A stretch of DNA of 64,000 nucleotides from Octopus sinensis (lineage: Eukaryota). Made by a program: the position numbers and the translations under genes. Shown in pieces: positions 1,097-64,000 of this stretch. Under the pieces are notes generated by a model. That model saw only the letters and a list, made by a program, of their open reading frames with translations. It searched no databases and was not told the DNA's origin. Each line of letters opens with the position of its first letter. The first letter of the stretch is position 1. The stretch lies in assembly GCF_006345805.1 (NCBI RefSeq), contig NW_021833428.1, positions 10,304-74,303 of the forward strand, read 5' to 3'.

Positions 1097-2286
1097 ATGG
1101 ACTTACTTGAAGTTCTCAAAAATACTTTTAGAACTAAAAGGCAAGATGATTTCATCGACCGACTTAATCACTCATTCACTACTTATTTGATTCTCTTCTT
1201 TGTTACGATTATTACTAATCAAAAAATGAAGGGAGAAATATTTTGCATGTGCCCAAGGCATCTAGAAAGTATTTTTTATTAATAATATTAATTTAGGTAG
1301 TTTCCACGGATATATTTTAGATGTTTGCTTGATATCTAAAAAATATAAAGTTCCTATTAATCAGAGCATCCATGAATCAGAAATGTATTTGATTGAAAAA
1401 AATAATTATTACAACTGGGTCATCTGGATTTTAATTGCATGTGCAATTTGTTACCAACTTCCTTGGTTCTTCTGGACTGTTATGCAAAAAGCAGGAAAAT
1501 TAGTTTTAGCAGTCTTCTAGAAATTCCATTTAAGTTTGAAAAAGTAAATAATTTTCGAGACAACCAATTTTGTTTAAATTTTGCAACTAAACATTTTGAA
1601 CTAATATTAAATACTCGCAATTTATGCAAAAATTAGAAAATCGTGAAACAAAAATATTTGAAATTTTTACAGATAATTCCAATGGATATTATTTATCACA
1701 TGTCTATGTTGCAACAAAATTTCTCTACATATTTAATTTAGTACTTCAAATTTATTTGACCGACATTTTATTTTCGAATGGCAAAATTACATTTTATGGG
1801 ATGAATATTTTTAAAAGTTTTATTCAAAACAAGCATACGGATTATTCTGCATATTTCCCACATATTGTTTTTTGTGATTTTTATATTAGAGAACTTGGCA
1901 GTAAAATGGTCGATAGTAAATTTCAAGTTCAGTGCACACTGCCAATAAACATTTATAATGAGATAATATTCTCACTTTATTGGTTTTGGATGGTTCTAAT
2001 GCTTATTTTAAATTCTGTAAATTTAACCTTTTGGTGCTGGAATTTATTTAATAAAAAATCAATGGTTAACTACATTAAAAAATATATTAAAATACAAGAA
2101 AATAATTTTAGTCATAGTGACGAATCGATTCGGAAATTCACTATCAATTATTTAAAATCAGAAGGAATTCTTGTTCTAAGACTAATATCCCACAATTATA
2201 ACTGTGTGATCACTGGAGAGCTAATAAATGAATTATTTGACAACTACAAAATTAAATATAATATTAATAATTTTAATATAATTTAA
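1097..2286 (+). CDS. inx: Innexin (gap-junction protein); one 28-nt intron (1269-1296) and two apparent frameshifts
   Basis: DDFIDRLNH..TT, C-x-C-P, YYNWV..L..A..QLPWFFW, YFPHIVFCDF, QCTLPINIYNEIIFSLYWFW are innexin motifs. The GT..AG intron restores HLESSFHGYILDVC. Frame switches near 1495 and 1628 lie in A-runs. Confidence 0.9.
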
Positions 2287-5807: not shown

Positions 5808-6437
5808 TTAAAAAAATGAACAAGATGATTTATCAAGAAGTGACTTTCTCCACGAATTAACAATTTCCACCACATGTATAGCACCCAAAACAGAACATTG
5901 AACCAACTGAGAATGAGCTATCTGAAAGGGGGAATCAAAACACAAAATAGACTGTTTAACACTTTCAAAAACAACAACGACAATTTTATCATCGTTTGGG
6001 GCAGACAAAGTTACTTCTTGTCCATAGACTGAAAAACAGAGAGCAACAATTATATATTTCATCGGAATACATGCCAAGACCAGAGCACTAGATATTGCAT
6101 TTATGGCACACGCCAATTGGAAATTTCCACCATTTATTTCTTGAACAAAAATCTCAATACTGCAGCATGGAAATAGATCAGATTGTATAACTTGAATAAA
6201 TAAGGATTTCAAGTATTTTTCTAACGTTGAATTATTTTTACAGTTTTTTAGTGAATTATAGTGAAAAATGATGTTTGCCTTTCCGGGCTGTTCGGAAGGA
6301 GCATTTGTTTCATGAGGACCATAGACAGAGCAGGAAATTATAGATGATGCGTATAAAAATTGAATAGATCCAGAACTTGAGTTGTTAGAAATAAATTCAA
6401 GGCAAAAAGGGGAATCATCCACATTGAACTGAATCAT
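5808..6437 (-). CDS. EXOSC5: Exosome complex component RRP46 (RNase PH-like), apparently intronless
   Basis: 209-aa ORF with GS..F, SCSVYGPHE, LFPCCSIEIFVQEI, LACAINAISSALVLACIPM. Confidence 0.8.
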   Translation of the reverse strand: MIQFNVDDSPFCLEFISNNSSSGSIQFLYASSIISCSVYGPHETNAPSEQPGKANIIFHYNSLKNCKNNSTLEKYLKSLFIQVIQSDLFPCCSIEIFVQEINGGNFQLACAINAISSALVLACIPMKYIIVALCFSVYGQEVTLSAPNDDKIVVVVFESVKQSILCFDSPFQIAHSQLVQCSVLGAIHVVEIVNSWRKSLLDKSSCSFF

Positions 6438-6455
6438 AAGCCACGATAGTTTATT

Positions 6456-7257
6456 TATTTATTTTATTTATTTTAACCCAAGAATCACCAACAGTTAATT
6501 AGGGTAATTAATTAGGTGATTCCAACAATCCTCAAAATCTTTCTCAGCTTTTCCCGATGCTGGACTCTGGACCCAACGCAAGTGTGGGACGGGCGGGGAG
6601 CAGTTTTTGTGAGGAATTGAATCGGGGTGATGTGCTTCTGGTTGTTAAAGTCTTTTGGCAGGTGGTCTTGTTGAAAGGCTAAGAAACCCTTTCCATCTTT
6701 CTTAATAAGTTGGTCAAGCGGAGTTGGGGTAATGTCGTTCAATTTGGAAATTTTCGTTATGCTAGCCGCGGCTCGGCATAGTGTAGTCTCAATTTTAAGG
6801 CGGTTAGACCATGAGAGATTAGAACCCCAAGCGGCGCAGGCATAGCCAATTGTTGGTTCGATGAATTGTTTGTAGAGAGTGCCGAGAGCCGGGAACGGTG
6901 TCTTTAGTCCACCAAAAATCGATTTGATTAGTCCAATCTTTCTCTGACTGGATCCGATGGCCTTCTCTAAATGGGCAGTAAAACACATGTGGGTGTCAAA
7001 AGTGACCCCCAGAATTTTAGGGTTCTTCGTGAATGGGATCTTTTCGTTGTCCAGAAAAAGATCAATAGTAAGGCTTCCAAGTCTCTTGTCCGACGTAAAT
7101 AGGGTAGTGGACGATTTTTTGTGGGAGATGTTCATCCTGTTTTGATATAGCCAAGTTCGAATTTGTAATAAGAGATCTTGTGTTTTTTTGGAAGCTTTCG
7201 AGAGGTCTTGGTCACGTGATCCAATGAGTAGGTCGTCAGCGTAGGCGAGAATGATTG
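6456..7257 (-). mobile_element. 5'-truncated non-LTR retrotransposon (RT C-terminus, '...GIT*' family) with A-rich tail
   Basis: ILAYADDLLI, KILGVTFD, LYKQFIEPTIGY; tail AATAATAAAATAAAA; candidate TSD AGTTTATT at ~6448 and ~7258. Confidence 0.8.
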
Positions 7258-11214: not shown

Positions 11215-11752
11215 ATAGTAAAAAAAACAATTTTTAATAAAAGAAAATATAAGTTAATTAAGGTTGCTTAAGAGCAGAAAGGATAGCGTGGCTATTACCC
11301 CTGACAACGGTTGTTGAAAGGCGTTGAAACAGCCATTCGGTCTCCCTTCTATCTTTCGTCTGAACCGAGATCAGGGATCCAAGTTTCCTAATGAAAGAGA
11401 TTGATTCCGGACCGAAGACTCCAGATGACTCCACAATAATCGGTTGCACTATGAACCTGTCCTTGAGCTCTGAATATTTTAATTTTTTAATTTTTTCGTA
11501 GTTCTGTGAAGCATATCCTGGAGAGGAGGCTGAGGCGATCAGGTTTGTCTCTGAGAAGGTGTCGGTGCAGGCGCAGTCCCAAACAAGGCACTTCCCGTTG
11601 GTGTACGGGAAAATTGTTATCTCATCAGGCCTTTTTCCGTCTGTGCGGATGAGACCAGGAGGCTCCAGCTGTGCCGGGAAACCAGTTGCATGTAAAGCGT
11701 TCTTGACAATTAGGTTCATTGCATGATGTCTTGGAAACCGGCCTGCACTGCG
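11215..11752 (-). mobile_element. CRE-like 3' end (RLE domain), a different subfamily
   Basis: SAGRFPRH, LEPPGL..DGKRPD, WDCACTD, E..K..KY, QRLSTTVVRGN. Confidence 0.85.
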
Positions 11753-22812: not shown

Positions 22813-24370
22813 TGTGACATGGTTTGCGCGATACCTATGGTTTGCGCGATACCTGACGTGACCTTGAAATGTACAATTATGACATTGATGGGATTAAATT
22901 ATAAATCTTTTAATTAGACCGCGACTCATTCTTATCATTTAATAATTTACTAAATTAGCTAAAGACTCTCTCATTTTGACAAAAAATTATATTTATAGGA
23001 ATTTAATTATCAGAAATTAATTTTTTTTTGGTGGAAAACCTAAATTTCTTGAATTATTTCTAGCGTGCAAGTATATTTGCAGCAATGTCCTCGTACAAAG
23101 GTTATGTAAAGAATAGTTTGGAATATCAAATTTTAAAAGATGCTTTACAGGATAAATTTCCTGAATATCTTACAAAGCAAAAAAAATATAGACTAGTTAA
23201 GAAAATTGAAAATTTTACTGTAATTAATGAAAGGTATCATACAAATTGTAAATGTATAGATTGTATCTTAAATGTGCGAATTCAGATCACAAGCTAGTGA
23301 TTTGTCTAGACAATGGATTTTAACGGTCATTGACGTATATAGCAGGTTAGTTTTTTTATCAATTTTTATAGATTTGCATTTGCGAGGCCGCTCTACACTA
23401 AGTCCTCAAATGAAGTTTGTGAAAACCTTAGATCATTATTTTTCTTAAATGGTCCGTGTCAATTTCTTCAGTCCGATAATGGGACTGAATTCAAGAATCG
23501 TGAAATGACCAATCTATGTGAGGAATTCAATATCAAACGAATTCACGGAAGGCCAAACAATCCCCGCTCACAAGGGATTGTCGAACGCTTCAACCAGTCA
23601 ATTACAAGAAAAATGGCAAAAATGATCGACAATGATAATAAAAAGTGGCTGGAAAAATTAGAAAATGCAGTGTACAGTTATAACATTTCTGTCCACTCAT
23701 CTTCTAATGAGAGCCCTTTTGAAAGATACCGGGGAATAAGTGGAATAAATACAATATTTTATGGTTGTAATTATAAAATTATTCCTTAGATAATTCAAGT
23801 AATGATTTGTTGAGTCCTGATCAAGTCGATGATGCAAACAATTGTCCGAGTCCAATTGAAAATTCATGTAATTTGAATTTCTATATGTAGATGATTGTAA
23901 TTATTCGTTTACAAGTCCGAAAAGATTTCAGTTCGAAATCAACCCCATTGATCCTAATTCTAATTATTACAAAGCGATGAACAGAAAAATGAATGTTCAC
24001 AATAGTAAGTATGAATTTAGTGTTGGTGATAAGGTATGCATAAAAATTAATGTTTAGGTTCGAGTTAAAAAAGACTTTGGAACAAATCCTTCGTTGCGAC
24101 TGGATAAGTTTGAATCTCCATATTATCCATCTGCAGAAATTATCAGTATTTTATCGAACAATCGCGTTGAGGTAGTTTAAACATTTAAATTTAATAGATA
24201 AAAAATTCGATGAGCGAAATTTCGATTGTGCCAATGTCCAGACTTAAAAAATAATTAACAAGTTATTATTCTTTGAAGTTTAATATTAATTACAATATTG
24301 ACATTAAGTTAAGCTTCAAGGTCACGTCAGGTAACACGCGGCCCATAGGTGTCACGCAAACCATGTCACA
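22813..24370 (+). mobile_element. Ginger2/TDD-like DNA transposon with a gypsy-like DDE integrase split by ~6 mini-introns
   Basis: TIRs TGTGACATGGTTTGCG.. / ..CGCAAACCATGTCACA. WILTVIDVYSR|FAFARPL, LQSDNGTEFKN, HGRPNNPRSQGIVERFNQ, YN..H; no LTRs. Confidence 0.85.
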
Positions 24371-25906: not shown

Positions 25907-26628
25907 ATGGATAAGCGTTTGGTTGTTAATTCTGTTCAATTTCCTGTATCTTTAACTTGTGTAAATACTCGGTTAACTGCGCAAGAAAAGCTTCAGAAAA
26001 GGTAAACTAAAAGTATTAACCACTATATAGAAAAGTAAAGAACCGAATTGCTGCTCAAATAGCTCGTGACAGGAAAAAAATCTACGTGAGCTCTCTAGAA
26101 GAGCAGTTGTTGACCTTGGAAGAGACCAACGCTCAACTTAAGCTTCAAAATTTGCAATTAATGAAACGCAATCAACTTTTAACTCAAAAACTTTTAAACC
26201 CATCTGAGGGAACTAGGAGGATTGAGGAAGTGTCGTTTCCAAACAAGTCTGCAGAACTTGAATCTTCTCCGCAGTGGAAGATGACGACACTTTTCTCTCT
26301 ACTCCTTTTTGCCCAGAGAACTCAAAGGGATTGGGAGAGCTCGTTATATTGGACGAAGACCCTATTGGTGGAGACGATAAGATGTTTCTCAATTCGTCCT
26401 CTAATGAGCCTACTTTTTCATATTTGGAACCATTTGATAACATTTTTTATTCCTGGGATAATATTTTTGGGGGTGACACTAATTTTCCTCCAGTTGAGCC
26501 GGCAAGCCTTCAAATGGATGAATCTTGTGAAACAAATTATTTGGAGAGTCGTCCAGATTGGTCTGAAAACTTTGATTTTATTCGATTTGACCCACTTCAT
26601 TGGCCTTCTATTTGAAACGGTGACTTGA
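25907..26628 (+). CDS. XBP1: X-box binding protein 1 (bZIP): spliceosomal intron 26002-26030; IRE1-type intron 26252-26271; XBP1s ends 26615, XBP1u ends 26628
   Basis: LTAQEKLQKR|KVKNRIAAQIARDRKK..LEEQ..LEETN basic-zipper; twin CNG|CAG stem-loops; acidic shifted frame and hydrophobic unspliced frame. Confidence 0.92.
26245..26283 (+). promoter_or_regulatory. IRE1 cleavage twin stem-loop (unconventional 20-nt intron)
   Basis: CAAGT-CTGCAGA-ACTTG and TCTTCT-CCGCAGT-GGAAGA: 7-nt CNGCAGN loops on 5-6-bp stems. Confidence 0.9.
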
Positions 26629-27549: not shown

Positions 27550-28080
27550 TTTTCAGATTCGCATAAGAATCCATTGTTCAGTTTAAAGCGTTTACTTTCT
27601 CATGAATCCAGGACACAACGCAGACTTAATAACTGTCCGCACAGGTTACATCCTATACGAGAAACTTCCCCTCGCTGTATGGAAAGACCGTCATTCTGTC
27701 CGACGCTTACCGTCTCCGCGATCAAGACCAGTGAGCTCCAGAACATAAGGGAAGCTTGCGCATTAAGGCCCCGTTTGACGACGTTGTTCAAATTGGGGTG
27801 TCTCGGAGTACGTCTAGCACTTAACCGGCAGGAATGAGGGTGGAGGGCATCAGAGTCTATCAACTGCCCACACTTGCACGGGTGGGGATGGCAAAGAGGG
27901 ATTCCTAGTCGAAGACAGGTACCGAGTCGAACTGACTAATCATACAAGAGTAAACCGGCTGAGGATAGTGGGACGGCATTTAACCAGTCCGCTGAGTGTG
28001 GTTGCGCGGCTGCGTTCATTGATGCGAGTTCAATTTGTAAAAAAATGTCGGATAATCACTGTCGGAGCAGACGAGTTATT
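27550..28080 (-). mobile_element. CRE-like RLE fragment with internal deletions
   Basis: QPHSADWLNAVP, CHPHPCKCG..HPHSC..RH, RISLNNG. Confidence 0.75.
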
Positions 28081-32350: not shown

Positions 32351-32753
32351 TAAATGGTAGAATAGACAAACGATTAGCTTAAATAATCTTTAAATTTGCT
32401 TCGATCAGTTAAAAATCATTAAGTTCGTGTTTCTAAGAATAGACATAACTGCTAGAATAATTTAAATACCGTAATAAATCATTAATATATTCGAAACCGT
32501 TACTAATTAATGAATTTCTTGTTTTTCGGTAAATTTTTGGCCTAACCGAGTAGAAAGAATTAAAAAGCGGTTAAATTGGAAAAGGCGAATCTATTCACAA
32601 TGTTCTAATGAATTAAAATTAATCGGTTTATTATTATTATTAAAACCACTTGCCACTCAATCGATTATTTAATTAATGTTCAATCGTTAAATTATGCTAG
32701 TTTAGAATAGCTATCTTATCTTTTTTCGCGGTAACCAGTCTGATTTATATACC

Positions 32754-33979
32754 ATGCTGAATTTGAATTCTGGTTCTATGATTTTTACAGAAACAACTTC
32801 ACTGGCGAACAATTGTTCTTGCCATCCACCTCGAGAAATTGACAACAAAACAAGAATTGCGAAAAAGAAACTTCTGATTGCTTTGATTTTGTCTGCTACG
32901 TTCACATTAGTTGAATTCATAGGTACATCAATGATTCTTAAAATAGGTGGAATTCTTTCAAATAGTATATCAATCATGACAGATTCTTCACATATGCTGG
33001 TTGATGTCATCAGCGTTGGGGTGAGCTACTTGTCATTAGTATTCCACTCACGACCTTCTACCAAAAAGTTCAGTTTTGGTTGGTATAGAATAGGTATTTA
33101 TACTTTTAAAACTCACAGAGGTACTTGCGTCACTACTTTCCATAATGTTACTTATCAACTTAACTGTCGTATTCGTATACGCTGCTGTTATCAGAATTAA
33201 GAGAAACGAATATGACATTAACCCAAATATTATGGTTATTATAGCATCAACTGGATTATTCTTCAATATAATGTAGAGTACACTTTATAAAGTGTTTAGA
33301 TTGGTTACAGTGTTGCATCACGGCCACGAACATTCCCACGAATTGCCAAAATCAGTCGATGTGATTCAACAGGGTAGTAAATTATGCTATATTCAGGAGA
33401 AGAACATTCACATAGAAGCCATGGAAAACATCTTGGACTCTCGGCTGCGTTCATTCATGTAATCGGAGACTTAATTCAGAGTATCGGTGTTTTTATTGCG
33501 GCTCTGATTATATATTTCAAAGTAATTGTCTTTAAATGATGTTAGCCAAATCTAAAAATCGTAGATCCAATTTGTACTTTTATTTTTTCAATTTTGGTGG
33601 TAATCAGCACTTATACAGTCATGAGAGACATATTTTTTGTGCTTATGGAAGGTATTTTGATTTTTCAATTTTAGCGGTCCCCGTTGGAGTTGACTATAAC
33701 TTACTTTGGAAATGCCTCAGCAGCGTTTCTGGAGTTCGTTCATGCCATAATATACGAGCATGGTCCCTTACACACTCTAAGCTTGTTATTGCAGCTCATT
33801 TAACTATTGGTAATTTATTGCATTAATTTTTGATAGACAGCGAAGTCGACTCACAAAGAATTGTAGCTGAATGTTCAGAAAAGTTAAGGATGGAGTTCAA
33901 CTTTTCTGAAATATATCTTCAGGTGGAAAACTATCATCATAGCATGGAGAGATGTACTGATTGTCTAGGACCATCATAG
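32754..33979 (+). CDS. ZnT/SLC30 zinc transporter (SLC30A2/3/4/8-like), multi-exon
   Basis: AKKKLLIA, IMTDSSHMLVD, RPSTKKFSFGWYR, HGHEHSH, AAFIHVIGDLIQSIGV, DPICTFIFS, LMEAVP, WSLT; start position uncertain. Confidence 0.9.
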
Positions 33980-46921: not shown

Positions 46922-48397
46922 ATGCAATTCAGGTGTGGAGACATTATCGAATCCTCATTTCCATTTGTACACATATTAAAAAAATCACTGTTGAAAGTTA
47001 ACTGCTCGTGGTGCTTGAGAAATGATAGGTAATTTAGAGTAATATATATTCTAGACCTTTAAAAAAGTGCAGTGCTTGCAATATCCTTTATTTCTGTTCC
47101 AGCATGTGCCAAGTATTAAAAACTATTTATTCACAGAAAAAATCGTGGAAAATCCATAAATACGAATGTTCTCAACTTAAACTCGTGCAACACTCGTGCG
47201 ATCTCCCTTCTGACTCAACTCGTTTATTTTATCATTTAATTATCAAAGTATCTATTTAAATTATATAAAAGGACAAATTGGGATTATTTACCAAACGAGA
47301 GGGCCCGGATGGGAGATGTTTTTATGACTTAGTGTCTAGTAATCGTAAAATATCACAATTGGTTAGATTTCGAGTATTTATCTGACCGAATGAAAAAGAA
47401 TGTTGAAATTGCCGAAAAATATTGTTCGAATGTGCACGATTTACAAGATTTTGCACAACTTGTGGAAATTTACTGTCGAATGCAAACAAACAGTTTTGAA
47501 ATTTTGAATTTTGACGAGAAAATAGGAGTTGGTCTTTATTTAAAGTAAATATATTCATACGTTAAATTCAGTACATCAAAGTATGACCATTCTTGCATTC
47601 CCAATGCAGCCACAAATTTCAATGGATTGCAACAACGAGTGGTCGCCATGAAGGACATTCCTCGCAATACTACTATCACGATAACATATATTGACGTCAT
47701 GAATAGCCACGAGGAGCGACAATCCTTGTTAAAGCCCTATTGCTTTACTTGTCGCTGTCCACGGTGCAGCGACGATAAATTTGAGGCACTCTTATCATCT
47801 ACAAATTGTCCCTTTTGTTCTAAGAACTCTGTGGACTCATCAAACACGTGTACTGAGTGTTTTTCTCATATGAATAATGAATACATCTATCGGAGAATTT
47901 TGATGCTCTCGGAATGTAAAAAAAATATTACGATGATGTATTTTGGATTATTAATCTCAGGAATAACCAAGATAATGAAAAAGGGATTGATGTTCGAATT
48001 TTTATTAAGAAAATCGAGGATTTAATTTCCAAATGGAGTCCATCTATTCTCCCCACGACACACGTGAATTACACAGCGTTGATGTTTCTAAAGTCTGGCT
48101 TCCAATTCGAAATAAACGATTATGTTGGAGGTCTTGAAACTTTGGAGCTGATTTTTCCCCGCATGAAGTGAGTTTTGGAAGAATAACGAAAAGGTTTATT
48201 TATGAAATGTCTCCGGCTGTGTCAATGGCTGCGATGAGAATTATTAAGACCAGGGCATTTTTGGGTCTTCCAGTTAAGGGAGAATTCTACACAGAGGTGA
48301 TTTTTTGATGTGGCAGTCTTAGACGCTGCGTAGAATGATGATAACTCATGGGCTGGATAATGAGCAAACCAAATATTTAATGGAATACAAGAATTAA
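46922..48397 (+). CDS. SMYD-family (SET + MYND) lysine methyltransferase, SMYD3-like
   Basis: CSWC..CSAC..FCSSMCQ..W..HKYEC (MYND); NSFEI, GVGLY, DHSCIPNA, ITITYID, YCFTCRCPRC (SET and post-SET). Confidence 0.9.
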
Positions 48398-49810: not shown

Positions 49811-51049
49811 ATGCCTCCGTTTATCTCGACGTGCAGATGTGAGAAATTAGAGTTATTAAGGAAAATACTAAATTCTGTAAATATAAATTTTTGCTATGTC
49901 ATAGAGTAAATACACTCCCTACAAATCCATAAATATTGTCGGTCCTCAAGGCTGTGGAAAGTCATGTACAGTGGCCTACCTGATAAAAGACAATCCCCTC
50001 AATTCAGTATATCTGGATTGTGCCCAATGCTACAGCGAGTCTATATTTTGGAATGTTCTTTGTGGGACATGCAACGATTCCGGGGAAACAGTCTCTGACT
50101 TTATTAGCATAGCAGGAAAGACAGGACAACATTTTACATTGGTGTCCCCTGTCATGTAAGGTTGCAGATTTTTGACTCAGCGGATAAGCTGTCGCCTCAA
50201 ATATTGTCAATTCTGAGCAAATTAAACGATTATAGTCCTCAAATAGACGTCTCTTGTGTGTATATTAGTGAAAATCCATGTGATATGTCAGGACTGACAA
50301 TACACTTGCCTCATTACACAATTAGTATGTACTATGTATACATTTCAGATGAAATCAAGACAATTTTAGAGGCTCACCTGCCTCCTTCCTCTTTAACTGA
50401 ATTATTTGTAGACATTCTTGTCAGTGTTATGAACGTGTGGACGTTTAATCTCCACGAAATCATTCAAATTGGTCTCAAATATTACAATCTTCTTCCTAAA
50501 GATGTGACTGCTCATTCAATGTGGAAAATTCTCGAACCTTCTCTACTTATGGCTCCACAATCTATTTTTCTAAAGACCGATTGTGAGTCTCTTAACAATG
50601 ACTTGGTGAATCTTCCAGAGAATACTAAACTTGTCCTTATTTGTGCCTACATTGCATCCTACAATCCAATTTCGACTGATGTGCAGTATTTTATTAAGAA
50701 GACGTCAAAGAAGGCTATGCCAAAGACTGTGATGATTATTTAAGAATGTTTAGACCACAACTCAAACGACAGGACCTAAGTTGTTTGAATTGGACAGACT
50801 GTGTGCTATACATCACGTGGTTAAAGAACACATGTCAAACATGTTGGAATATGATGTTAATAGTCATGTTGTTGTGGTTTAAATGACTCGTAGTTGTCTA
50901 CTTTGGTGTGTCTTCGACTGCTGAGTACGACAGGAGGACTTGACTCTCCCAAGTTTAAATGTCTTGCCACTTACGACCAAATGAAACCCGTTGCCAGTTC
51001 TATAAATCTCAATTTGAAAGCATATTTATATAATCTCGATAATAAATAA
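49811..51049 (+). CDS. ORC5: Origin recognition complex subunit 5
   Basis: Walker A GPQGCGKS; IFDSADKL; LPENTKLVLICAYIASYNP..D..YF; GPKLFELDRL; LDSPKFKC. Confidence 0.88.
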
Positions 51050-53840: not shown

Positions 53841-56800
53841 CTTTTTTTTTTTAAACAAAAAAGAAATTAAAAATAGCTAAGTTAATTAAAGGCCTCACGA
53901 GACACCCGGCCAGCCTCGCGAATGGCGAAACCGTTCCCTCGGATCACAGCAATCGACAGACGTTCCAGGAGCCAAGAAAACTCTCTTGGATCGTGACTAG
54001 TCCTTGAAATCCGTCGACCGAGCGAGCGAAGGAAGCGGAGTGTCTTGGGGCCGAAGATCCCGGAGGACTCCACGGCAATTGGAGTAAAGAACAGCGAGTT
54101 GGAGAGGTGGCCGTACTTGAGAATCTTTCGCTCCTCGGCCTGCCTCGAAGCGTGCCCAGGATTTCCCAACGAGAACGTGTCCGAATCCCAAATAAGGGAT
54201 TTCCCCTGCTCGTAGGGGAAGGTGGACATGCCGTCAGGGCGTTTGCCATCCCCTCTATCCAATCCAACAGGTTCAAGGATTGACGGGATGCCTGCTGAAG
54301 CGAGGGCTCTCTGTATGACTGAGTTGAGTTCACTGTGACGGGGGGCACGACCTGCACTCCGCCGGCAAGCGAGGGGATGCAAACCGTACTCGTCAACAGT
54401 TCCCCCACAACGGCATTTGTGCGTCTGGCAGATTTTCAGCCCGACACGGAGGGAGATTGCAATTCTTAGGCATTCCTTGTCCAACAGGTTCCCGATGGAA
54501 GGGAGAGGGAGAGCCTTTAACCAGACACCGCTGCCTTCACAGCGACCTGCACTGCACGGAGGCAAGCGACACGGTGTTGATTGGAGACAGGAAGCAGGCC
54601 TTCGAAGATTGCCTGACAAGAGATTTCGTCCCATTGACGCTGTGAAAATTGAGAATTGGGCAGCTTCGAACCAAACCGAGCCTCCCACCGACCACGGGCT
54701 GCAGAGTAAACTTCAGACAATTTCCGTTCGGGGAGGTTTCTAAGAACGATGTCTGAGAGAGTACGAGAAGCGTGATGAGCGGATAGGAATGCCGGGAGGG
54801 CAAGATCGGAATAGGATCTCAAGCCAAGGCCGCCCCAGCGCACAGGCAGGGATGCCTGAGTCCAGCCTGGATCGTCGAAAGCCAGATTGCAAAGAGAGCT
54901 CGTACCGAGCCTGAGGATATTGTCAAGGTCGGAAAGAAGGTCGTCTCTTTGAAAGCAGGTGCGCATCTTAGGGTGTAAAGGATCTTAGGGACGGAAAAGT
55001 GGTTTCGGAGGAGGAAAGAGCCACATGAGGCTCTATGACTTTAAGCTTGTCGATCATTTTGGATAAGTGGGAAATTTTTCCAGCGAGTGAGCATTCGAGG
55101 GCAGAAGGCCCCATAGGGGCACCGAGGATCGTAAGATTTGATTTGTCCGTAATCCGGACATCTGAGAGAATGCCTCGGCACGTGGAAATTGAAACAGTGA
55201 AGTCACTCGGATTTAAGGCAATGTTCACGATTTCGGATTTATCGGCGTTTATAGATAGGCCGATGTCCGAGAGGGAAGGGAGGATAGAACGAAGGTCGTC
55301 AAAAACAGCATCGGGGGGACCACAAATGGTTGCGTCATCCAGATACCATATGTTAACTGGGGATCGAACAGAGTGAGCGATACTGTTAACGCCCAAGGCA
55401 AAAAGGACAGGACCCAGGGGATCTCCCTGTTGGACCCCGGTGGCCGAAGAAATAGGTATATCGTTGAACATAAGGATACTTGAGGAAGCATAAGAGAGAT
55501 GCACAAGGGGATAGGCGAAAGGGACTAATTCACGACAGCACTCCAGAAGGTGGTCCCGCCTGATGGAATTGAATGCGTTGGAAACGTCCAATTTGACCAT
55601 AATAAACTGCTCAAATGATTCGTTAGTTCACGAATTGAATGAACACCGCTTCGCAGCCGTTAGGAACGCCGACCCCGAGTTGGACAGGCAGAAACACTCG
55701 AGACAAAAAGGGGACAATGGCTCGACACAGAAGTTTAGCAGAGAGCCTCCGAAAATATTGCCCACGGCGATGGGCCTCACGCCGTTGTCCTTTTTCCCAA
55801 GGGCAGTAAGGTTGGCGGAAAAGAAAATATCACGAGCAAAATCGGGGAGGGAACCGGAGATGAAGCGGTTGCACAGGTTGGTATTGAGCGTAGGAGTTTT
55901 CGACCAGCTTCGGCGGTAGTGGGAGACGTCAGGTCTTTCAGATGACCTGGTCTCAGACAATCTACACCACCACTGCTTCCAGGTGAAAAGTCCCTCAGGG
56001 CTTTCAGTACAAGAGTTTCCGAGACAGCAAAAGGATTGAGAGCGAGGGTGTCAGGGGACGGCTGAGGCCTGAAGTCGTTTGGCTGAGGGGATGTTTTTTC
56101 CTGAGGGAATTCAAACAGCAGGGGTCGTGGGCAAAAGGGGACTTGTCGAGGCAACCAGCCTAACTGCACCACGAACGTCGCCGTCCAAGAGTTTACTATT
56201 AATCTTTCTGTTGAGGTAATCGACGTCATTCGCGTGAGAGGACACATTATGGGATGGTGAACCAGAGGGAAATTTGGAGCTAGCGAGGTGGTCCCGCAGC
56301 CAGCGGATGAAAAAAAGTTCTTATCATACAAGGCCAATTCTTGTTTGACGGTTGTAGCCAGCGAGATGGAGGAGGTTTTCACACGGGCTCTTAATGGGGC
56401 AAAACCGAGACCGAAAGAGGCGAAGCAAAACAGCTTAAGCCAATCGGAATGGCATCAGATGCCAAAGCCTTATCGATTGCGGCGGACAAGGAGGAGGCTG
56501 CAAAGATACGCGCAGCTTTTGGGATTCTGGATGGGATTTTCCGGAGACGGCGGAAGAGCTTGATAGATTTGAGAACTTCCTCGGCAGACGGAGATGTTGC
56601 GAGTGGCGCTTTTTCGGGGAGTTCTTGCGGGCTGGAACACTGAACCGGCTGGCAAGTGCGGCAGGAAGGACAGTCCCAAATTAAGAGAGAGGCAGAAACG
56701 CGCCTGGAAAGACGCACGCAAGAAAGGTGGAAGAATCTGTCGCAACTAGAACAGACTCTCCCTTTCTTGCGGTTGTTACTAACTTCGCAAGTAGAGCATA

Positions 56801-59800
56801 GAACAGAAGTGGGTTGGAAACAGAAAGACATAAAAAGAGAGCAAGATAAAAACAATGAACAAATGGATGACAAAAAGAAAGGGAAAGAGAGTGAGAATTA
56901 TTGAATTATTGAATAACATACGCGCGCGCGTGTTCTTGTGGTGTTTTTCTTTGTTTGTTTTTTGGTCTATATTAGTGAAGAAAAGAAGGTTTTTTCTGGC
57001 ATTTCTGATTGTTTTTTTGTTCTTTCATTTCTTAATGACTACCTGCTCCGTTTGTAAATCCGTTAATAATCGGAAAAAATCTATTCGGTGTGATTCTTGC
57101 TCTTCTTTGTTTCATATTTCCTGTATCAAGCTGTCAAAGAAGTCACTTTCCGGCCTCTCTCGTTGGGTGTGCTCTTCTTGCTCTTCCTTTCCTCCTTCTT
57201 ATTTAAATGATGGTCACCACTCCGTCTCTCCTCCCTCTCTTGACAATCCTTCAGATCCATTTTTATTGGACTCTGAATCGGTCCTTAAATTGGTTCATGA
57301 TTATCGTGTTTCTTTCCGCATTCCCATCCGAATCCCAAAATCAGCCCGTATTTCGGTGGCCCTAAACCTTTCTTCTTTAATTGAGTCTGCCATTTCCGAT
57401 CCATCCATTCATAATTGGAATCGTTTGTTTTTTTTCCCAACTTTTGCGTTGGGCTCCCCTGTTCGTCGCCCCGGTGCCGGTGCCTCCTTTGTTTCTCTTT
57501 TGAAAAAGAATATGAGTCAGTTTATGACTGGCTCTTTCGCTCCGTCTCCCTCTCATTTACCTTCTACCGCTAAGCCCTCGTCGAAGGACGGTTCTAAACG
57601 TTTACGGTCTCGGATTAACTCCTGCTTAATGTCGCATGATGTCATCGCGGCTGTTCGTCTCTTGTCATCTTCTGATTCCGTCCGTACAATCACCCCCGAT
57701 GTTGTTCGCATTCTCAAGGAAAAGCACCCTATTGGAAAACCAGTAACTTTTGATGTGGCCCAATCGTCCTGTTTTCCCTTTTCTGTTTCTCCCAAACAAC
57801 TTTTGGACGCCTTAAACTCCTTTAGGGGTAACAGTAGTGGAGGTATCGACGGTCTCCGTCCTATTCATTTGAGAGACTTAATTTCCGCCAATGGGGATAC
57901 CGGGAATCGCCTCTTGAATGCTTGCACTAACTTGTGCAATTTATTCCTGAGCGGCAAAATTTCTGACCATGCTAGAATTCTGTTCTTTTCCGCGAATCTT
58001 ACGGCCTTGGGCAAGAAAGATGGCGGTATCAGGCCTATTGCTGTTGGAAATGTCTTTCGCCGTTTATTTGCGAAAGTCTGTTGCAAGTCCGTTATTCCTT
58101 CTATTGGCGAGCAACTGCAGCCCATTCAGTTGGGTGTGGGTGTTCCTGGCGGTTGCGAGTCTTCTGTCCATGCCTGTCGTTGTTTTATTCACGGTTCTAC
58201 TCGTTCCAATATTTCCCTTGCCTTATTGAAACTGGATGTAACTAATGCTTTCAATTCTCTGGACCGTGGTCATATGTTGGAGGTCTGCCAAGACCGTGTT
58301 CCACACTTGCTTCCCTTTATATCGCTTTCGTACTCGCTTCCATCACTTTTAATCGCCGGTAGTTTTTCATTTCTTCGTCCTGTGGCGTCCAACAGGGTGA
58401 TCCTTTGGGCCCATTACTGTTCGCTCTTGCCGTGGATGCCATTGCCCGCGTTAACGAATCACCCCTTAATCTTTGGTATCTCGACGATTGCACCCTTGGC
58501 GGTCCGCCTGATGTTTTGCTAAAGGACTTAGCCAGTCTAATTCCGGCTTTATCCGACATTGGTCTGGTTATTAATTCCAGCAAGTCCGAGATTGTCAATC
58601 TCTCTGTAGAGCCATCCCTGTTTAAGAACTCCTTCTCTCTTTTTTGCAAACTCCTTCCTGAGTTGAGACAGACACCTCTGTCTGATCTGGAAATTCTGGG
58701 GTCACCGATTCTCACCGACTCAGCTACTCGAATCCTCCTTGCCAAGAAAAATCTTATTGCTCTCTTTGTGAAAAACTTTCTGTCATTGATCCTCATCCTT
58801 CATTTTACATCCTCAAGAACTATCTTTTGATCCCAAAATTGTTTATATCCTGAGGAGCTCACCTTGTTTTTATGCAACCCAAATGCTGGAATCTTATGAT
58901 TCCTTGGTTCGGAGGTCTGCGGAGAAAATTCTCAATGTGCATTTCGACGATATTGCCTGGTGTCAGGCTAAACTTCCTGTGAGTCACGGGGGTCTGGGCC
59001 TCCGTTCTAGTATGGATTTGGCTCTTCCTGCCTTTCTTTCTTCGGCGTCTGGATCATATCTTCTTGTCCAAAAGATTCTGGAAAAAACTACTGAATCATC
59101 GTTGGACTCTGATATTGATTCAGCCCTCGCTTTTTGGAAAGGCAATTTTTCTGAGGTCCCTTCCGATGTCTCTTCTCAGCGAGACTGGGACAAAATTCTC
59201 TGCCGTCGTTCTTCTACCGACTTGGAACCACTCCTCGACCAACACAGACTGGCTTGTTTCCGATCCGCCTGTCAGCCATACTCAGGCTCCTGGCTGAATG
59301 TTCTCCCTTCTCCGCTTTTGGATACTGTCCTCGATAGGGATTCACTCCGTTTTGGTATCTGTAATCGCCTTGGACTCCCTGTCTGCAGACCTCATCCATG
59401 TCGTTGTGGGGATAAAGTTGACGCCTTTGGGCTACATCCTCTGTCTTGTCGAATGAGCGCCGGCCGATTTCCTCGGCACACCGAAATCAACAGTCTAATT
59501 CAGAAAGCTCTGGAAAGAGCTGGTTTCCCTTGTATTCTGGAACCGACGGGCCTTGTTCTTGATGATGCAAAACGTCCGGACGGCTGTACGCTGTTCGCTT
59601 TTGAATCCGGGAAACAGCTCGTTTGGGACGTCACCTGTTCCGACTCCTTCGCCAAGGGTGCCTTAAATGCTACGGCTTGTCGTCCCGGCTCGTCGGCCGA
59701 GAAGGCCGAATTTGCAAAACTTTCGAAATATGTTGATTTACTCGATCGATTTTGCTTTTGGGCAATTGCTGTCGAAACCTCCTGTGTTTTTGGGGCCAAG

Positions 59801-60044
59801 ACGCTTGCCCATCTCAAGAAACTTGGCCGCTTGTGCACCCACCGCTCCAGAGATCCGAGGGAATTTATATTCCTCATTCAGAGGATCTCGCTGGCTGTTT
59901 TACGCGGGAATTGTCTTTCAATCCTGCGAGCCAGTTCATAATAGCTAGTTTTTTTTTTTTAAAAAAAAAAATTATTGAATTGAATAACAAATAGCAAGTG
60001 AACAAATGAATAGAAAAAGTGCACCACAACAACAACGCGCGTGC
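53841..60044 (-). mobile_element. Full-length CRE-like element, family A (PHD-RT-CCHC-RLE; ORF ~56831-53882, frameshifted), with its 5'UTR split by the family B insertion
   Basis: PHD C4HC3, RPIAVG, QLGVG, KLDVSNAFN, GVQQGDPLGP, WYLDD, GGLG, CRCG..H..C, RPDG, E..K..KY; poly(A) at 53842-53852; 5' piece at 59990-60044. Confidence 0.9.
56919..59970 (+). mobile_element. Full-length CRE-like element, family B (ORF ~57035-59941, a few frameshifts), ~20-bp TSD
   Basis: CSVC..CDSC..FHISC..WVCSSC PHD; same RT/RLE motifs; T-run/poly(A) tail; AATTATTGAAT(TAT)TGAATAACA on both sides. Confidence 0.92.
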
Positions 60045-60379
60045 AAATAATTGTCTCATCTTGAACGAGGATTAACTAGACCCGTCAGATGTTTCCCGTT
60101 TCCACGGTCTAGCCCAGGGATCGGCAGGATGTTTGTCTTCGCGTGGCAAAATTTTATTTTTGTATGCGATCCGGGCCAAACGTGAAAAGATCCTTATCGG
60201 TTGGAAAAATAAGAATATACGAGAATCACTTGGCTGAGACAGAGGATCTTGATTCGTTTACAATCGTGAGCGGTAACATACAAACTATCTTTTTTGCAAG
60301 GAACTAACCGTTCCAGGTAAAGCTTGCGAGTTTATTAGTTAAAAATGATTACAAGGAAGTGAATTTATTTTATTTATTA

Positions 60380-60940
60380 ATCTGACTAGTCCTAAACGTA
60401 ATATATCGTTAAAATGTAAATCGGTAATTTTCGTTCTCAGACAATTTTTTACATTATTCATAGTGGAGAATAATTGTTGATATAAAAATGTGTTTCCAAA
60501 TATTAGCATTGTCGGTTAATTGTGATATTTTTTAACACATACAAAATTTTTTAGAAACTCAAAATTACCAATTCAGAAAAATATTTTGATTTAAGTTTAG
60601 TGTCGCATTGACTTTAAAGTAATTCCATTTTATAACAACCTGGTACTGTCTCAGTTTCAACATCAAATGAGATTGGAAAATGTTGAAAAGATTTTTATGA
60701 ACCTAAAAAATTATATATAAGTATTTTACTCTTAAATCCATAAAACGTGATGAAAATTCTGATCTTAATTCGTATATTCCGGGCCATCAGTCGGATTCGT
60801 AGAAAGAAAATTCACAAAATACGTCATATTTCCTTTTTGTAACTGTAATTCCTACAACTCAAATTTATTTTCAAAAGTAGTTATTTCGGTATACATTTGG
60901 TTTATTAATTTATTACTTCCTTGCAGTTTCAAGTTTAAGT
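60380..60940 (-). mobile_element. hAT (SPIN/GTF2IRD2-like) transposase C-terminal remnant
   Basis: FDVETETVP..MELL..QCDTKLK and FGNTFLYQQLFSTMNNVK..RTKITD. Confidence 0.6.
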
Positions 60941-60946
60941 CATTTA

Positions 60947-63928
60947 GAAAGGGAGAGTCTGTTCTAGTTGCGACAGATTCTTCCACCTTTCTTGCGTGCG
61001 TCTTTCCAGGCGCGTTTCTGCCTCTCTCTTAATTTGGGACTGTCCTTCCTGCCGCACTTGCCAGCCGGTTCAGTGTTCCAGCCCGCAAGAACTCCCCGAA
61101 AAAGCGCCACTCGCAACATCTCCGTCTGCCGAGGAAGTTCTCAAATCTATCAAGCTCTTCCGCCGTCTCCGGAAAATCCCATCCAGAATCCCAAAAGCTG
61201 CGCGTATCTTTGCAGCCTCCTCCTTGTCCGCCGCAATCGATAAGGCTTTGGCATCTGATGCCATTCCGATTGGCTTAAGCTGTTTTGCTTCGCCTCTTTC
61301 GGTCTCGGTTTTGCCCCATTAAGAGCCCGTGTGAAAACCTCCTCCATCTCGCTGGCTACAACCGTCAAACAAGAATTGGCCTTGTATGATAAGAACTTTT
61401 TTTCCATCCGCTGGCTGCGGGACCACCTCGCTAGCTCCAAATTTCCCTCTGGTTCACCATCCCATAATGTGTCCTCTCACGCGAATGACGTCGATTACCT
61501 CAACAGAAAGATTAATAGTAAACTCTTGGACGGGACGTTCGTGGTGCAGTTAGGCTGGTTGCCTCGACAAGTCCCCTTTTGCCCACGACCCCTGCTGTTT
61601 TAATTCCTCAGGGAAAAACATCCCCCTCAGCCAAACGACTTCAGGCCTCAGCCGTCCCCTGACACCCTCCTCGCTCTCAATCCTTTTGCTGTCTCGGAAA
61701 CTCTTGTACTGAAAGCCCTGAGGGACTTTTCACCTGGAAGCAGTGGTGGTGTAGATTGTCTGAGACCAGGTCATCTGAAAGACCTGACGTCTCCCACTAC
61801 CGCCGAAGCTGGTCGAAAACTCCTACGCTCAATCACCAACCTGTGCAACCGCTTCATCTCCGGTTCCCTCCCCGATTTTGCTCGTGATATTTTCTTTTCC
61901 GCCAACCTTACTGCCCTTGGGAAAAAGGACAACGGCGTGAGGCCCATCGCCGTGGGCAATATTTTCCGGAGGCTCTCCGCTAAACTTCTGTGTCGAGCCA
62001 TTGTTCCCTGCTTGTCCTCGAAGTTTCTGCCTGTCCAACTCGGGGTCGGCGTTCCTAACGGCTGCGAAGCTGCTGTCCACTCAATTCGTGACTTAACTGA
62101 ATCATTTGAGCAGTTTATTATGGTCAAATTGGACGTTTCCAACGCATTCAATTCCATCAGGCGGGACCACCTTCTGGAGTGCTGTCGTGAATTAGTCCCT
62201 TTCGCCTATCCCCTTGTGCATCTCTCTTATGCTTCCTCAAGTATCCTTATGTTCAACGATATACCTATTTCTTCGGCCACCGGGGTCCAACAGGGAGATC
62301 CCCTGGGTCCTGTCCTTTTTGCCTTGGGCGTTAACAGTATCGCTCACTCTGTTCGATCCCCAGTTAACATATGGTATCTGGATGACGCAACCATTTGTGG
62401 TCCCCCCGATGCTGTTTTTGACGACCTTCGTTCTATCCTCCCTTCCCTCTCGGACATCGGCCTATCTATAAACGCCGATAAATCCGAAATCGTGAACATT
62501 GCCTTAAATCCGAGTGACTTCACTGTTTCAATTTCCACGTGCCGAGGCATTCTCTCAGATGTCCGGATTACGGACAAATCAAATCTTACGATCCTCGGTG
62601 CCCCTATGGGGCCTTCTGCCCTCGAATGCTCACTCGCTGGAAAAATTTCCCACTTATCCAAAATGATCGACAAGCTTAAAGTCATAGAGCCTCATGTGGC
62701 TCTTTTCCTCCTCCGAAACCACTTTTCCGTCCCTAAGATCCTTTACACCCTAAGATGCGCACCCTGCTTTCAAAGAGACGACCTTCTTTCCGACCTTGAC
62801 AATATCCTCAGGCTCGGTACGAGCTCTCTTTGCAATCTGGCTTTCGACGATCCAGGCTGGACTCAGGCATCCCTGCCTGTGCGCTGGGGCGGCCTTGGCT
62901 TGAGATCCTATTCCGATCTTGCCCTCCCGGCATTCCTATCCGCTCATCACGCTTCTCGTACTCTCTCAGACATCGTTCTTAGAAACCTCCCGAACGGAAA
63001 TTGTCTGAAGTTTACTCTGCAGCCCCGTGGTCGGTGGGAGGCTCGGTTTGGTTCGAAGCTGCCCAATTCTCAATTTTCACAGCGTCAATGGGACGAAATC
63101 TCTTGTCAGGCAATCTTCGAAGGCCTGCTTCCTGTCTCCAATCAACACCGTGTCGCTTGCCTCCGTGCAGGTCGCTGTGAAGGCAGCGGTGTCTGGTTAA
63201 AGGCTCTCCCTCTCCCTTCCATCGGGAACCTGTTGGACAAGGAATGCCTAAGAATTGCAATCTCCCTCCGTGTCGGGCTGAAAATCTGCCAGACGCACAA
63301 ATGCCGTTGTGGGGGAACTGTTGACGAGTACGGTTTGCATCCCCTCGCTTGCCGGCGGAGTGCCGGTCGTGCCCCCCGTCACAGTGAACTCAACTCAGTC
63401 ATACAGAGAGCCCTCGCTTCAGCAGGCATCCCGTCAATCCTTGAACCTGTTGGATTGGATAGAGGGGATGGCAAACGCCCTGACGGCATGTCCACCTTCC
63501 CCTACGAGCAGGGGAAATCCCTTATTTGGATTCTACCTGCTCGGACACGTTCTCGCTGGGAAATCTCGCTCTGTCCGCCGCCAATCCTGGGCACGCTTCC
63601 AGGCAGGCCGAGGAGCGAAAGATTCTCAAGTACGGCCACCTCTCCAACTCGCTGCTCTTTACTCCAATTGCCGTGGAGTCCTCCGGGATCTTCGGTCCCA
63701 AGACACTCCGCTTCCTTCGCTCGCTCGGTCGACGGATTTCAAGGACTAGTCACGATCCAAGAGAGTTTTCTTGGCTCCTGGAACGTCTGTCGATTGCTGT
63801 GATCCGAGGGAACGGCTTCGCCATTCGCGAGGCTGGTCGGGTGTCTCGTAAGGCCTTTAATTAACTTAGCTATCTTTAATTTCTTTCTTGCTTTCATAAC
63901 AAAGGTTTTGAAATTAAAAAAAAAAAAG
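60947..63928 (+). mobile_element. CRE family A copy 2, 5'-truncated within the PHD region, near-identical to 53841-56767 in inverted orientation
   Basis: 621-aa RT-RLE ORF 61937-63802; stop at 63864; poly(A) at ~63917-63928. Confidence 0.93.
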
Positions 63929-64000
63929 TCATTTAGATGTGATTTTATGTCTACCAAAATGTCTCATTTTGAGATATTAATAGTATTTCGGAAATATACC

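What the first reader, a model, noticed from the sequence alone, without database searches (positions are those of the whole stretch)
26245..26628. XBP1 with a minimal 20-nt IRE1 intron and a ~340-nt dual-coding region
Seen: two adjacent hairpins, CAAGT[CTGCAGA]ACTTG and TCTTCT[CCGCAGT]GGAAGA. Cutting at CNG|CAG removes 26252-26271 and shifts PNKSA into an acidic tail (VEDDDTF..FDPLHWPSI*); the unspliced frame stays open and is hydrophobic. Known: the intron is 26 nt in mammals, 23 nt in fly and worm, and 20 nt in many filamentous fungi. Inference: an unusually compact animal version in which the two stems are almost directly adjacent, paralleling spliceosomal intron shrinkage.
Basis: partly seen in the sequence, partly recalled or inferred. 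Interest (0 to 1): 0.72.

Follow-up and report, generated by a model that had tools for sequence, protein, structure and literature searches.

The report
Ordinary XBP1 stress switch, tiny-intron parasite
This is the standard animal XBP1 stress-response gene of a tiny-intron organism assembled along with its mollusc host (likely a dicyemid parasite), and its predicted 20-base stress intron is an ordinary length that the host's own XBP1 gene and many related animal genes also appear to have.

Summary
The window has a transcribed bZIP gene with two CNG|CAG 7-nt loops 20 nt apart on a long exon-exon stem (Rfam RF04247, E 3e-4, below the cut-off). Two frames overlap for 344 nt: hydrophobic if unspliced, acidic if spliced. 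The contig belongs to a short-intron guest in a mollusc assembly, probably a dicyemid, with its own IRE1 and RtcB. But 20 nt is neither minimal nor tied to intron shrinkage. The host XBP1 also has a predicted 20-nt IRE1 intron, while the spliceosomal intron that both genes share is 11,995 nt in the host and 29 nt here. In 80 metagenome XBP1-like loci, 20 nt was the commonest predicted length (26 of 58 with twin hairpins) and 6 were 17 nt; a paper predicts 17 nt in moths and beetles. No spliced molecule was seen: the contigs hold only the unspliced form. A residual oddity: the unspliced tail lacks the arrest-peptide spacing and is the most hydrophobic of those compared. The scan noted XBP1/HAC1-type introns before on other DNA, including a dicyemid-like gene. 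Verdict: new member of a known kind, low interest.

The parts
25907..26001 (+). Exon 1 coding part (32 aa). The ATG at 25907 is predicted.
   Evidence: Open into exon 2. Transcript contigs cover from 25936 and 25953, so the start codon itself is not covered.
26002..26030 (+). 29-nt GT-AG spliceosomal intron, at the same codon and phase as the host XBP1's 11,995-nt intron
   Evidence: Left out in contigs of runs X1 and X2; host comparison
26031..26190 (+). bZIP domain, XBP1-type
   Evidence: Pfam bZIP_1 E 1.5e-7 and bZIP_2 E 1.6e-7, both over cut-off; 46% identical to the host XBP1 bZIP over 50 aa; best library hits include proteins named XBP1
26215..26237 (+). 5' arm of the predicted central exon-exon stem S1 (26224-26237, distal part 26215-26219)
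   Evidence: Fold with both loops held open; Rfam RF04247 alignment 26226-26294
26244..26260 (+). 5' splice-site hairpin: 5-bp stem, 7-nt loop CUG|CAGA
26252..26271 (+). Predicted 20-nt IRE1 (non-spliceosomal) intron, ends CA..CG; carries a TGA in the spliced frame at 26259-61
   Evidence: Excision inferred; only the retained form is seen in contigs.
26262..26282 (+). 3' splice-site hairpin: 7-bp stem, 7-nt loop CCG|CAGU, one base from the first hairpin
26283..26306 (+). 3' arm of the predicted central stem S1
26254..26628 (+). Unspliced-frame tail (124 aa; whole XBP1u 230 aa), hydrophobic, without the arrest-peptide spacing
26434..26490 (+). Strongest hydrophobic segment of XBP1u (aa 167-185, Kyte-Doolittle 19-mer mean 2.59), 45 aa before the C-terminus; candidate HR2 or transmembrane anchor
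   Evidence: survey comparison
26272..26615 (+). Spliced-frame acidic tail (113 aa; whole XBP1s 219 aa), predicted activation domain; 344-nt dual-coding overlap

Best explanation
This is the XBP1 gene of a tiny-intron animal co-assembled with a mollusc host (likely a dicyemid): its mRNA is made and loses a 29-nt ordinary intron, and under ER stress IRE1 would cut both hairpin loops and RtcB would join the exons, removing 20 nt and swapping a hydrophobic tail for an acidic, predicted activating tail. The unspliced protein likely brings its own mRNA to the ER membrane through the hydrophobic segment. The 20-nt length is likely a common invertebrate state, set by the two hairpin arms and the need to shift the frame (2 mod 3), and it did not shrink along with the spliceosomal introns. 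Shown: gene, transcript, 29-nt splice, hairpins, dual frames, genes for IRE1 and RtcB. Inferred: cleavage, ligation, ER targeting, activation, dicyemid identity.
For: Element and frames. Transcript with the 29-nt intron removed in 2 of 4 runs laid. Machinery: a compact IRE1 with luminal, transmembrane, kinase and RNase parts and 8 introns of 24-54 nt, and a compact RtcB. Each sits beside a long-intron host copy on a chromosome-scale contig. Host is a mollusc: 37 haemocyanin-domain matches. The window carries an innexin. Among 51 animal genomes, introns this short were found only in myxobolids and Dicyema (PMC13644364). Length is not special: host 20 nt; survey 26 of 58 at 20 nt and 6 at 17 nt. 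The prediction rule gave the exact excision in the two clusters that held both forms (both 23 nt). A second, diverged hairpin pair in run X2 matches 26244-26281 without a gap.
Against: No spliced form of this gene was seen; the contigs retain the 20 nt, though contigs drop rare forms. The Rfam score is below the gathering threshold. The twin-hairpin fold is slightly less stable than an alternative that pairs the two loops. No surveyed cluster shows a 20-nt excision directly. The host cut could be read as 23 nt at the next CCG|CAG, but that site has no 7-nt-loop hairpin. IRE1 and RtcB lie on other small contigs and are tied to the same organism only by their compact gene style. The dicyemid assignment rests on intron size, host class and innexin; no named dicyemid sequence was matched.
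Confidence: 0.9

Rival explanations
1. One reading: the IRE1 intron was shortened to a minimum along with the organism's spliceosomal introns.
For: The organism does have tiny spliceosomal introns: 29 nt here and 24-54 nt in IRE1. 20 nt is shorter than the 26 nt of human (PMC11077094) and the 23 nt of D. citri.
Against: The host has the same predicted 20 nt with flanking spliceosomal introns of 11,995 and 1,710 nt. 23 of 54 survey clusters with a call are 20 nt and 6 are 17 nt. 17 nt is predicted in Lepidoptera and Coleoptera.
Confidence: 0.04
2. The element is a relic that is no longer spliced. XBP1u acts as a membrane-anchored bZIP released by proteolysis (ATF6/CREB3-like), or the hairpins are cut for decay only.
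For: Only unspliced contigs are seen. The unspliced tail is the most hydrophobic against 58 survey loci (2.59 vs maximum 2.29). Of 4 variants in the overlap, 3 are silent in the unspliced frame and change the spliced one (very small sample).
Against: The spliced frame is open for 113 codons and acidic, against 169 of 20,000 shuffles. Both loops, both arms and S1 are intact. A diverged relative in X2 keeps the gapless hairpin pair and, read by eye from its 30-letter loose ends, both frames. Host XBP1 contigs are also unspliced in all 4 runs, so that result is uninformative.
Confidence: 0.05
3. The frame switch is made by the spliceosome through a tiny GT-AG intron, as this organism splices 24-30-nt introns.
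For: A latent 28-nt GT..CAG (26247-26274) overlaps the element.
Against: Of 28 GT/GC-AG pairs of 18-80 nt around the element, no GT-AG pair reaches the acidic frame; only two GC-AG pairs of 68 and 77 nt do. The 28-nt one gives a stop after 74 aa counted from the exon-2 start. Contigs that lose the 29-nt intron keep this stretch.
Confidence: 0.01
4. The gene is a diverged paralogue or copy belonging to the mollusc host.
For: It lies in the same assembly, in three near-identical copies.
Against: Runs X3 and X6 hold the host XBP1 with no differing letters but nothing laid on this gene. Runs X1 and X2 hold a diverged host XBP1 (14 listed substitutions) at depth 274-343 and this gene about 99% alike at depth 8-9. 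The assembly has two gene styles and two IRE1 genes.
Confidence: 0.02

Closest known systems
Metazoan XBP1 mRNA (IRE1/RtcB splicing; bifurcated stem-loop of Peschek et al. 2015, PMC4687415; Rfam RF04247)
   Same: bZIP followed by two 7-nt loops with G at position 3, arm stems S2 and S3, long central stem S1, predicted zipped stem after splicing, frameshift from a hydrophobic to an acidic tail, overlapping frames.
   Different: Intron 20 nt against 26 nt in human. Loops end CAGA and CAGU, not CAGC. Very short N-terminus (32 aa before the bZIP exon) and short acidic tail (113 aa; survey median 257, minimum 136, some contigs truncated). No W-x6-W-x-P-x-M arrest spacing.
XBP1 of the mollusc host in the same assembly (L023, G000:C26)
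   Same: Predicted 20-nt IRE1 intron, RF04247 match (30.1 bits, E 0.006), same first-intron position and phase, dual frames.
   Different: Spliceosomal introns of 11,995 and 1,710 nt; overlap 249 nt; arrest-peptide spacing present; hydrophobic maximum 1.80; acidic tail 306 aa.
Aspergillus niger hacA (20-nt intron; PMC6627864, passage read)
   Same: Same intron length; IRE1-type splicing.
   Different: Fungal gene, ligated by Trl1-type ligase; regulated through transcription start and 5' UTR structure. The window's gene shares its intron position and best hits with animal XBP1.
Plant bZIP60 (PMC11077094, passages read)
   Same: The unspliced form carries a strongly hydrophobic segment lost on splicing, and lacks the XBP1u arrest peptide sequence.
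   Different: Activation domain is N-terminal and the intron is 23 nt in Arabidopsis. The resemblance is functional only; membrane insertion here is untested.

Membership tests
Metazoan XBP1 | XBP1-type bZIP domain upstream of the element | tested here: met
   shared intron position
Metazoan XBP1 | Two hairpins with 7-nt CNG|CNGN loops | tested here: met
Metazoan XBP1 | Central exon-exon stem S1 and extended stem after splicing | tested here: met
   Predicted folds only: -32.1 kcal/mol with loops open, 0.9 above the minimum; spliced form -27.4
Metazoan XBP1 | Frameshift from a hydrophobic unspliced tail to an acidic spliced tail | tested here: met
Metazoan XBP1 | IRE1 and RtcB genes in the same organism | tested here: met
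   Compact IRE1 (L001/L031) and RtcB (L003/L004); same-organism link inferred from gene style
Metazoan XBP1 | Spliced mRNA lacking the intron exists in vivo | tested here: inconclusive
   Only assembled contigs were available; they show the unspliced form for this gene and for host XBP1
Metazoan XBP1 | Cleavage by IRE1 and induction by ER stress | not testable with these tools
   Needs a bench assay
Rfam RF04247 (bZIP non-canonical intron) | Score at or above the gathering threshold of 41 bits | tested here: not met
   33.2 bits, E 3.1e-4, full-length model match. The host XBP1 also falls short (30.1 bits), so I read this as a model limit for invertebrate genes.
Human-type XBP1u with arrest peptide | C-terminal arrest peptide (W249, W256, P258, stall at M260; PMC6624018, PMC11077094) | tested here: not met
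   Spacing absent here, present in host and in 31 of 58 survey loci with twin hairpins. Not a defining feature of XBP1 as a whole.
Dicyemida (source organism) | Spliceosomal introns mostly under about 30 nt | tested here: met
   9 introns measured: 29 (RNA-supported) and 24, 24, 24, 26, 28, 29, 30, 51 or 54 (predicted); Dicyema median 27 (PMC6543705)
Dicyemida (source organism) | Placement by a marker gene against named dicyemid sequences | not testable with these tools
   No named dicyemid protein was returned

The most novel reading that the evidence does not exclude
Probability: 0.25. Interest if true: 0.4.

Novelty: new member of a known kind. Interest (0 to 1): 0.17.

Why it matters
Little as first framed. 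It shows that a highly reduced parasite likely keeps the IRE1-XBP1-RtcB branch; a full-text search for 'XBP1' with 'dicyemid' found 0 papers. It also gives a neat contrast: one shared spliceosomal intron differs about 400-fold between guest and host while the IRE1 intron stays at 20 nt, so the two splicing systems are under separate length constraints. The side survey suggests 20 nt, not 23 or 26, is the commonest length in this sample of unnamed XBP1-like loci. The hydrophobic unspliced tail without an arrest motif could show another way to bring XBP1 mRNA to the ER.

Tried and rejected
No RNA holder was listed for the gene; X1 and X2 behave as RNA only because the 29-nt intron is missing. 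Laying contigs showed no 20-nt joint for the window's gene or the host gene; contigs cannot show rare forms. A genome-wide Rfam RF04247 search found nothing, not even the window's own element (77 of 49,091 candidates scored). My degenerate twin-loop pattern found the three copies of this gene and two unrelated host hits, and missed host XBP1. The flank of the second hairpin pair from run X2 is not in G000. A word-based protein search with the window's frame gave no hit; the innexin search gave one unnamed hit; the Atlas gave only general innexin clusters. PDB searches with the unspliced tails of guest and host both gave 0 hits, so that test of the arrest peptide was uninformative. NCBIfam gave nothing. 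No UPRE- or ERSE-like motif (motifs recalled) lies in the 306 nt upstream apart from one ATTGG. Selection for extra hydrophobicity is not shown: synonymous shuffles with guest codon usage reached the observed GRAVY in 2,759 and the observed 19-mer maximum in 1,489 of 20,000. Hooks and Griffiths-Jones 2011 is not held. Paper searches for 20-nt XBP1 introns listed fungal HacA or unrelated papers; searches for mollusc, oyster and planarian XBP1 splicing gave nothing relevant. No structure or complex prediction was run.

Full report
1. Observation. The two hairpins, the 20-nt spacing and both reading frames are exactly as reported. The gene starts further upstream: a predicted ATG at 25907, a 29-nt GT-AG intron at 26002-26030, then a bZIP domain over Pfam's cut-off. 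Unspliced, it encodes 230 aa with a 124-aa hydrophobic tail. With 26252-26271 removed it encodes 219 aa with a 113-aa tail holding 25 acidic residues. The element matches Rfam RF04247 over the whole model (33.2 bits, E 3.1e-4; gathering score 41). The two loops are the only plus-strand CNGCNGN loops of 113 with stems of 4 bp or more, and 0 of 300 shuffled windows gave such a twin. With both loops held open the region folds into the bifurcated stem-loop described for metazoan XBP1 (PMC4687415; passages and part 1 of results section 5 read), at -32.1 kcal/mol against -33.0 for the minimum-energy fold. The 61-nt core alone is not more stable than shuffles (z -1.31). The 344-nt double open frame is unlikely by chance: 21 and 169 of 20,000 shuffles, and 232 of 20,000 with the guest's codon usage.

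2. Whose gene it is. The window lies on a small contig of a 2.72-Gb assembly that holds two gene styles. There is a compact IRE1 with luminal, transmembrane, kinase and RNase parts and eight predicted introns of 24-54 nt, and a second IRE1 match on a chromosome-scale contig. RtcB likewise has a compact copy and a long-intron copy, plus a broken match. The large contigs carry 37 haemocyanin-domain matches, so the host is a mollusc. The window has an innexin and LINE-type reverse transcriptases. Runs X3 and X6 hold host XBP1 with no differing letters and nothing laid on the window's gene. Runs X1 and X2 hold a diverged host XBP1 at depth 274-343 and the window's gene, about 99% alike and with the 29-nt intron removed, at depth 8-9. 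This fits a parasite living in more than one host species. Among 51 animal genomes, such short introns were reported only in myxobolids and Dicyema (PMC13644364; part 1 of 3 and passages read). Dicyema sp. has a median of 27 nt (PMC6543705, passage); D. japonicum has 36.7% GC and 49% repeats (PMC6736024, passages). A dicyemid is therefore likely, but no named dicyemid sequence was matched. The locus occurs on three contigs at 99.7-99.9% identity over 3.2 kb, probably alleles or redundant assembly.

3. Orthology. The best hits among 1.84 billion representatives are weak (20 at E up to 0.001) and limited mostly to the bZIP. The 29-nt intron falls in the same arginine codon and phase as the first intron of host XBP1.

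4. Is 20 nt special? No, on three lines. (a) Host XBP1 (L023) has loops CCG|CAGC and CTG|CCGC 20 nt apart on a long stem, with an RF04247 match. Its spliceosomal introns are 11,995 and 1,710 nt. The shared intron thus differs about 400-fold while the IRE1 intron is the same length. A 23-nt reading of the host site keeps the frame but has no 7-nt-loop hairpin. Twin hairpins were called in 58 of 80: 26 at 20 nt, 21 at 23, 6 at 17, 3 at 26, 1 at 29, 1 at 44; 22 had no call. After clustering at 85% identity there were 72 clusters: 23 at 20, 20 at 23, 6 at 17, 3 at 26, 1 at 29, 1 at 44, 18 none. Among 28 clusters with the animal arrest-peptide spacing, 17 were 20 nt. In the two clusters that held both forms, the missing stretch was exactly the predicted 23 nt; no 20-nt pair was available. 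These loci are unnamed, and the sample leans towards the query alignment. (c) PMC13027231 (passages read) sequenced a 23-nt intron in Diaphorina citri and predicts 17 nt in Lepidoptera and Coleoptera from alignments. I recall that Hooks and Griffiths-Jones 2011 give 20-26 bases as typical; I could not read it.

5. Mechanism. Shown: transcription, removal of the 29-nt intron, the unspliced mRNA, both hairpins, both frames, and genes for IRE1 and RtcB. Inferred from the known pathway: IRE1 cuts after G3 of each 7-nt loop, the exons zip into an extended stem, RtcB ligates them, and the acidic tail replaces the hydrophobic one. Not seen: the spliced mRNA. Contigs keep the 20 nt for this gene and for host XBP1 alike, so the blank says little. 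A spliceosomal route is unlikely: of 28 GT/GC-AG pairs near the element, no GT-AG pair reaches the acidic frame. Run X2 also holds a second contig (depth 20) that matches only 26244-26281, gap-free with 4 differences. Read by eye, its flanks pair with each other and keep both frames for the 30 letters shown. It looks like the XBP1 of a related species, and its flank is not in G000.

6. What differs. The unspliced tail lacks the W-x6-W-x-P-x-M spacing of the human arrest peptide (positions from PMC6624018 and PMC11077094, passages read); the host has it, as do 31 of 58 survey loci. The tail is more hydrophobic than all 58 (19-mer maximum 2.59 vs at most 2.29; GRAVY 0.62 vs at most 0.24), and survey hydrophobicity does not follow GC content. 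But synonymous shuffles with the guest's T-rich codon usage reach these values in 7-14% of cases, so selection for an anchor is not shown. The acidic tail is shorter than all 58 (minimum 136 aa). These points form the novel case.

7. Novelty. A search for XBP1 with dicyemid found 0 papers; searches on 20-nt introns and on mollusc, oyster or planarian XBP1 found no animal 20-nt report, but the library lacks most subscription papers and the key survey. No supplements were read; those of PMC13027231 and the dicyemid genome papers might list XBP1 sequences. Earlier notes of this scan describe XBP1/HAC1-type introns elsewhere, including a dicyemid-like gene with 26 nt (unchecked). Verdict: a real, expected XBP1 orthologue; new member of a known kind; interest 0.17.

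Noticed in passing
whole window; G000:C9899: The contig belongs to a short-intron guest (likely dicyemid) assembled within a mollusc genome; gene calls here should not be credited to the host.
   Followed up: yes
window 26244-26281, run X2 record 3: A 554-nt contig shares only the twin hairpins (38 nt, 4 differences, no gap) and has different, self-pairing flanks: probably the XBP1 of a second parasite species in that sample.
   Followed up: partly
window 26247-26274: A latent 28-nt GT..CAG overlaps the IRE1 element, within the organism's intron size range; using it would truncate the protein after the bZIP. It is retained in contigs, perhaps hidden by the hairpins.
   Followed up: partly
L006, L007, L008 (G000 C9550, C9899, C12641): Three copies of the locus, 99.7-99.9% alike over 3.2 kb; the only difference within the gene is at window 25935 in exon 1.
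   Followed up: partly
L023 (G000:C26), host XBP1: Predicted 20-nt IRE1 intron with a CTG|CCGC 3' loop, arrest-peptide spacing, and a Ser/Thr/Asn microsatellite-coded stretch between bZIP and hairpins.
   Followed up: yes
L035-L114: Predicted XBP1 intron lengths fall almost wholly on 17, 20, 23, 26 and 29 nt, with 20 nt commonest. A group without a called twin (e.g. L071, L077, L085, L087, L089, L093, L099-L101, L106) reads 'EHAS/EYAS' at the 5' site, hinting at a variant loop sequence in one lineage.
   Followed up: partly
L005 (G000:C2292): A third RtcB match with six stops inside, probably a pseudogene.
   Followed up: no
window 1600-2286, 5808-6458, 32706-33700, 47549-48025, 50108-50743: Guest genes: innexin, RNase PH (exosome subunit), cation efflux transporter broken by apparent tiny introns, SET-domain protein, ORC5.
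   Followed up: partly
window 53900-64000, 11258-11752, 27600-27935: Several copies and fragments of a GC-rich non-LTR retrotransposon (RVT_1, with an upstream Cys-rich PHD-like stretch by eye); transposase-like fragments elsewhere and an integrase-core fragment at 23343-23789.
   Followed up: no
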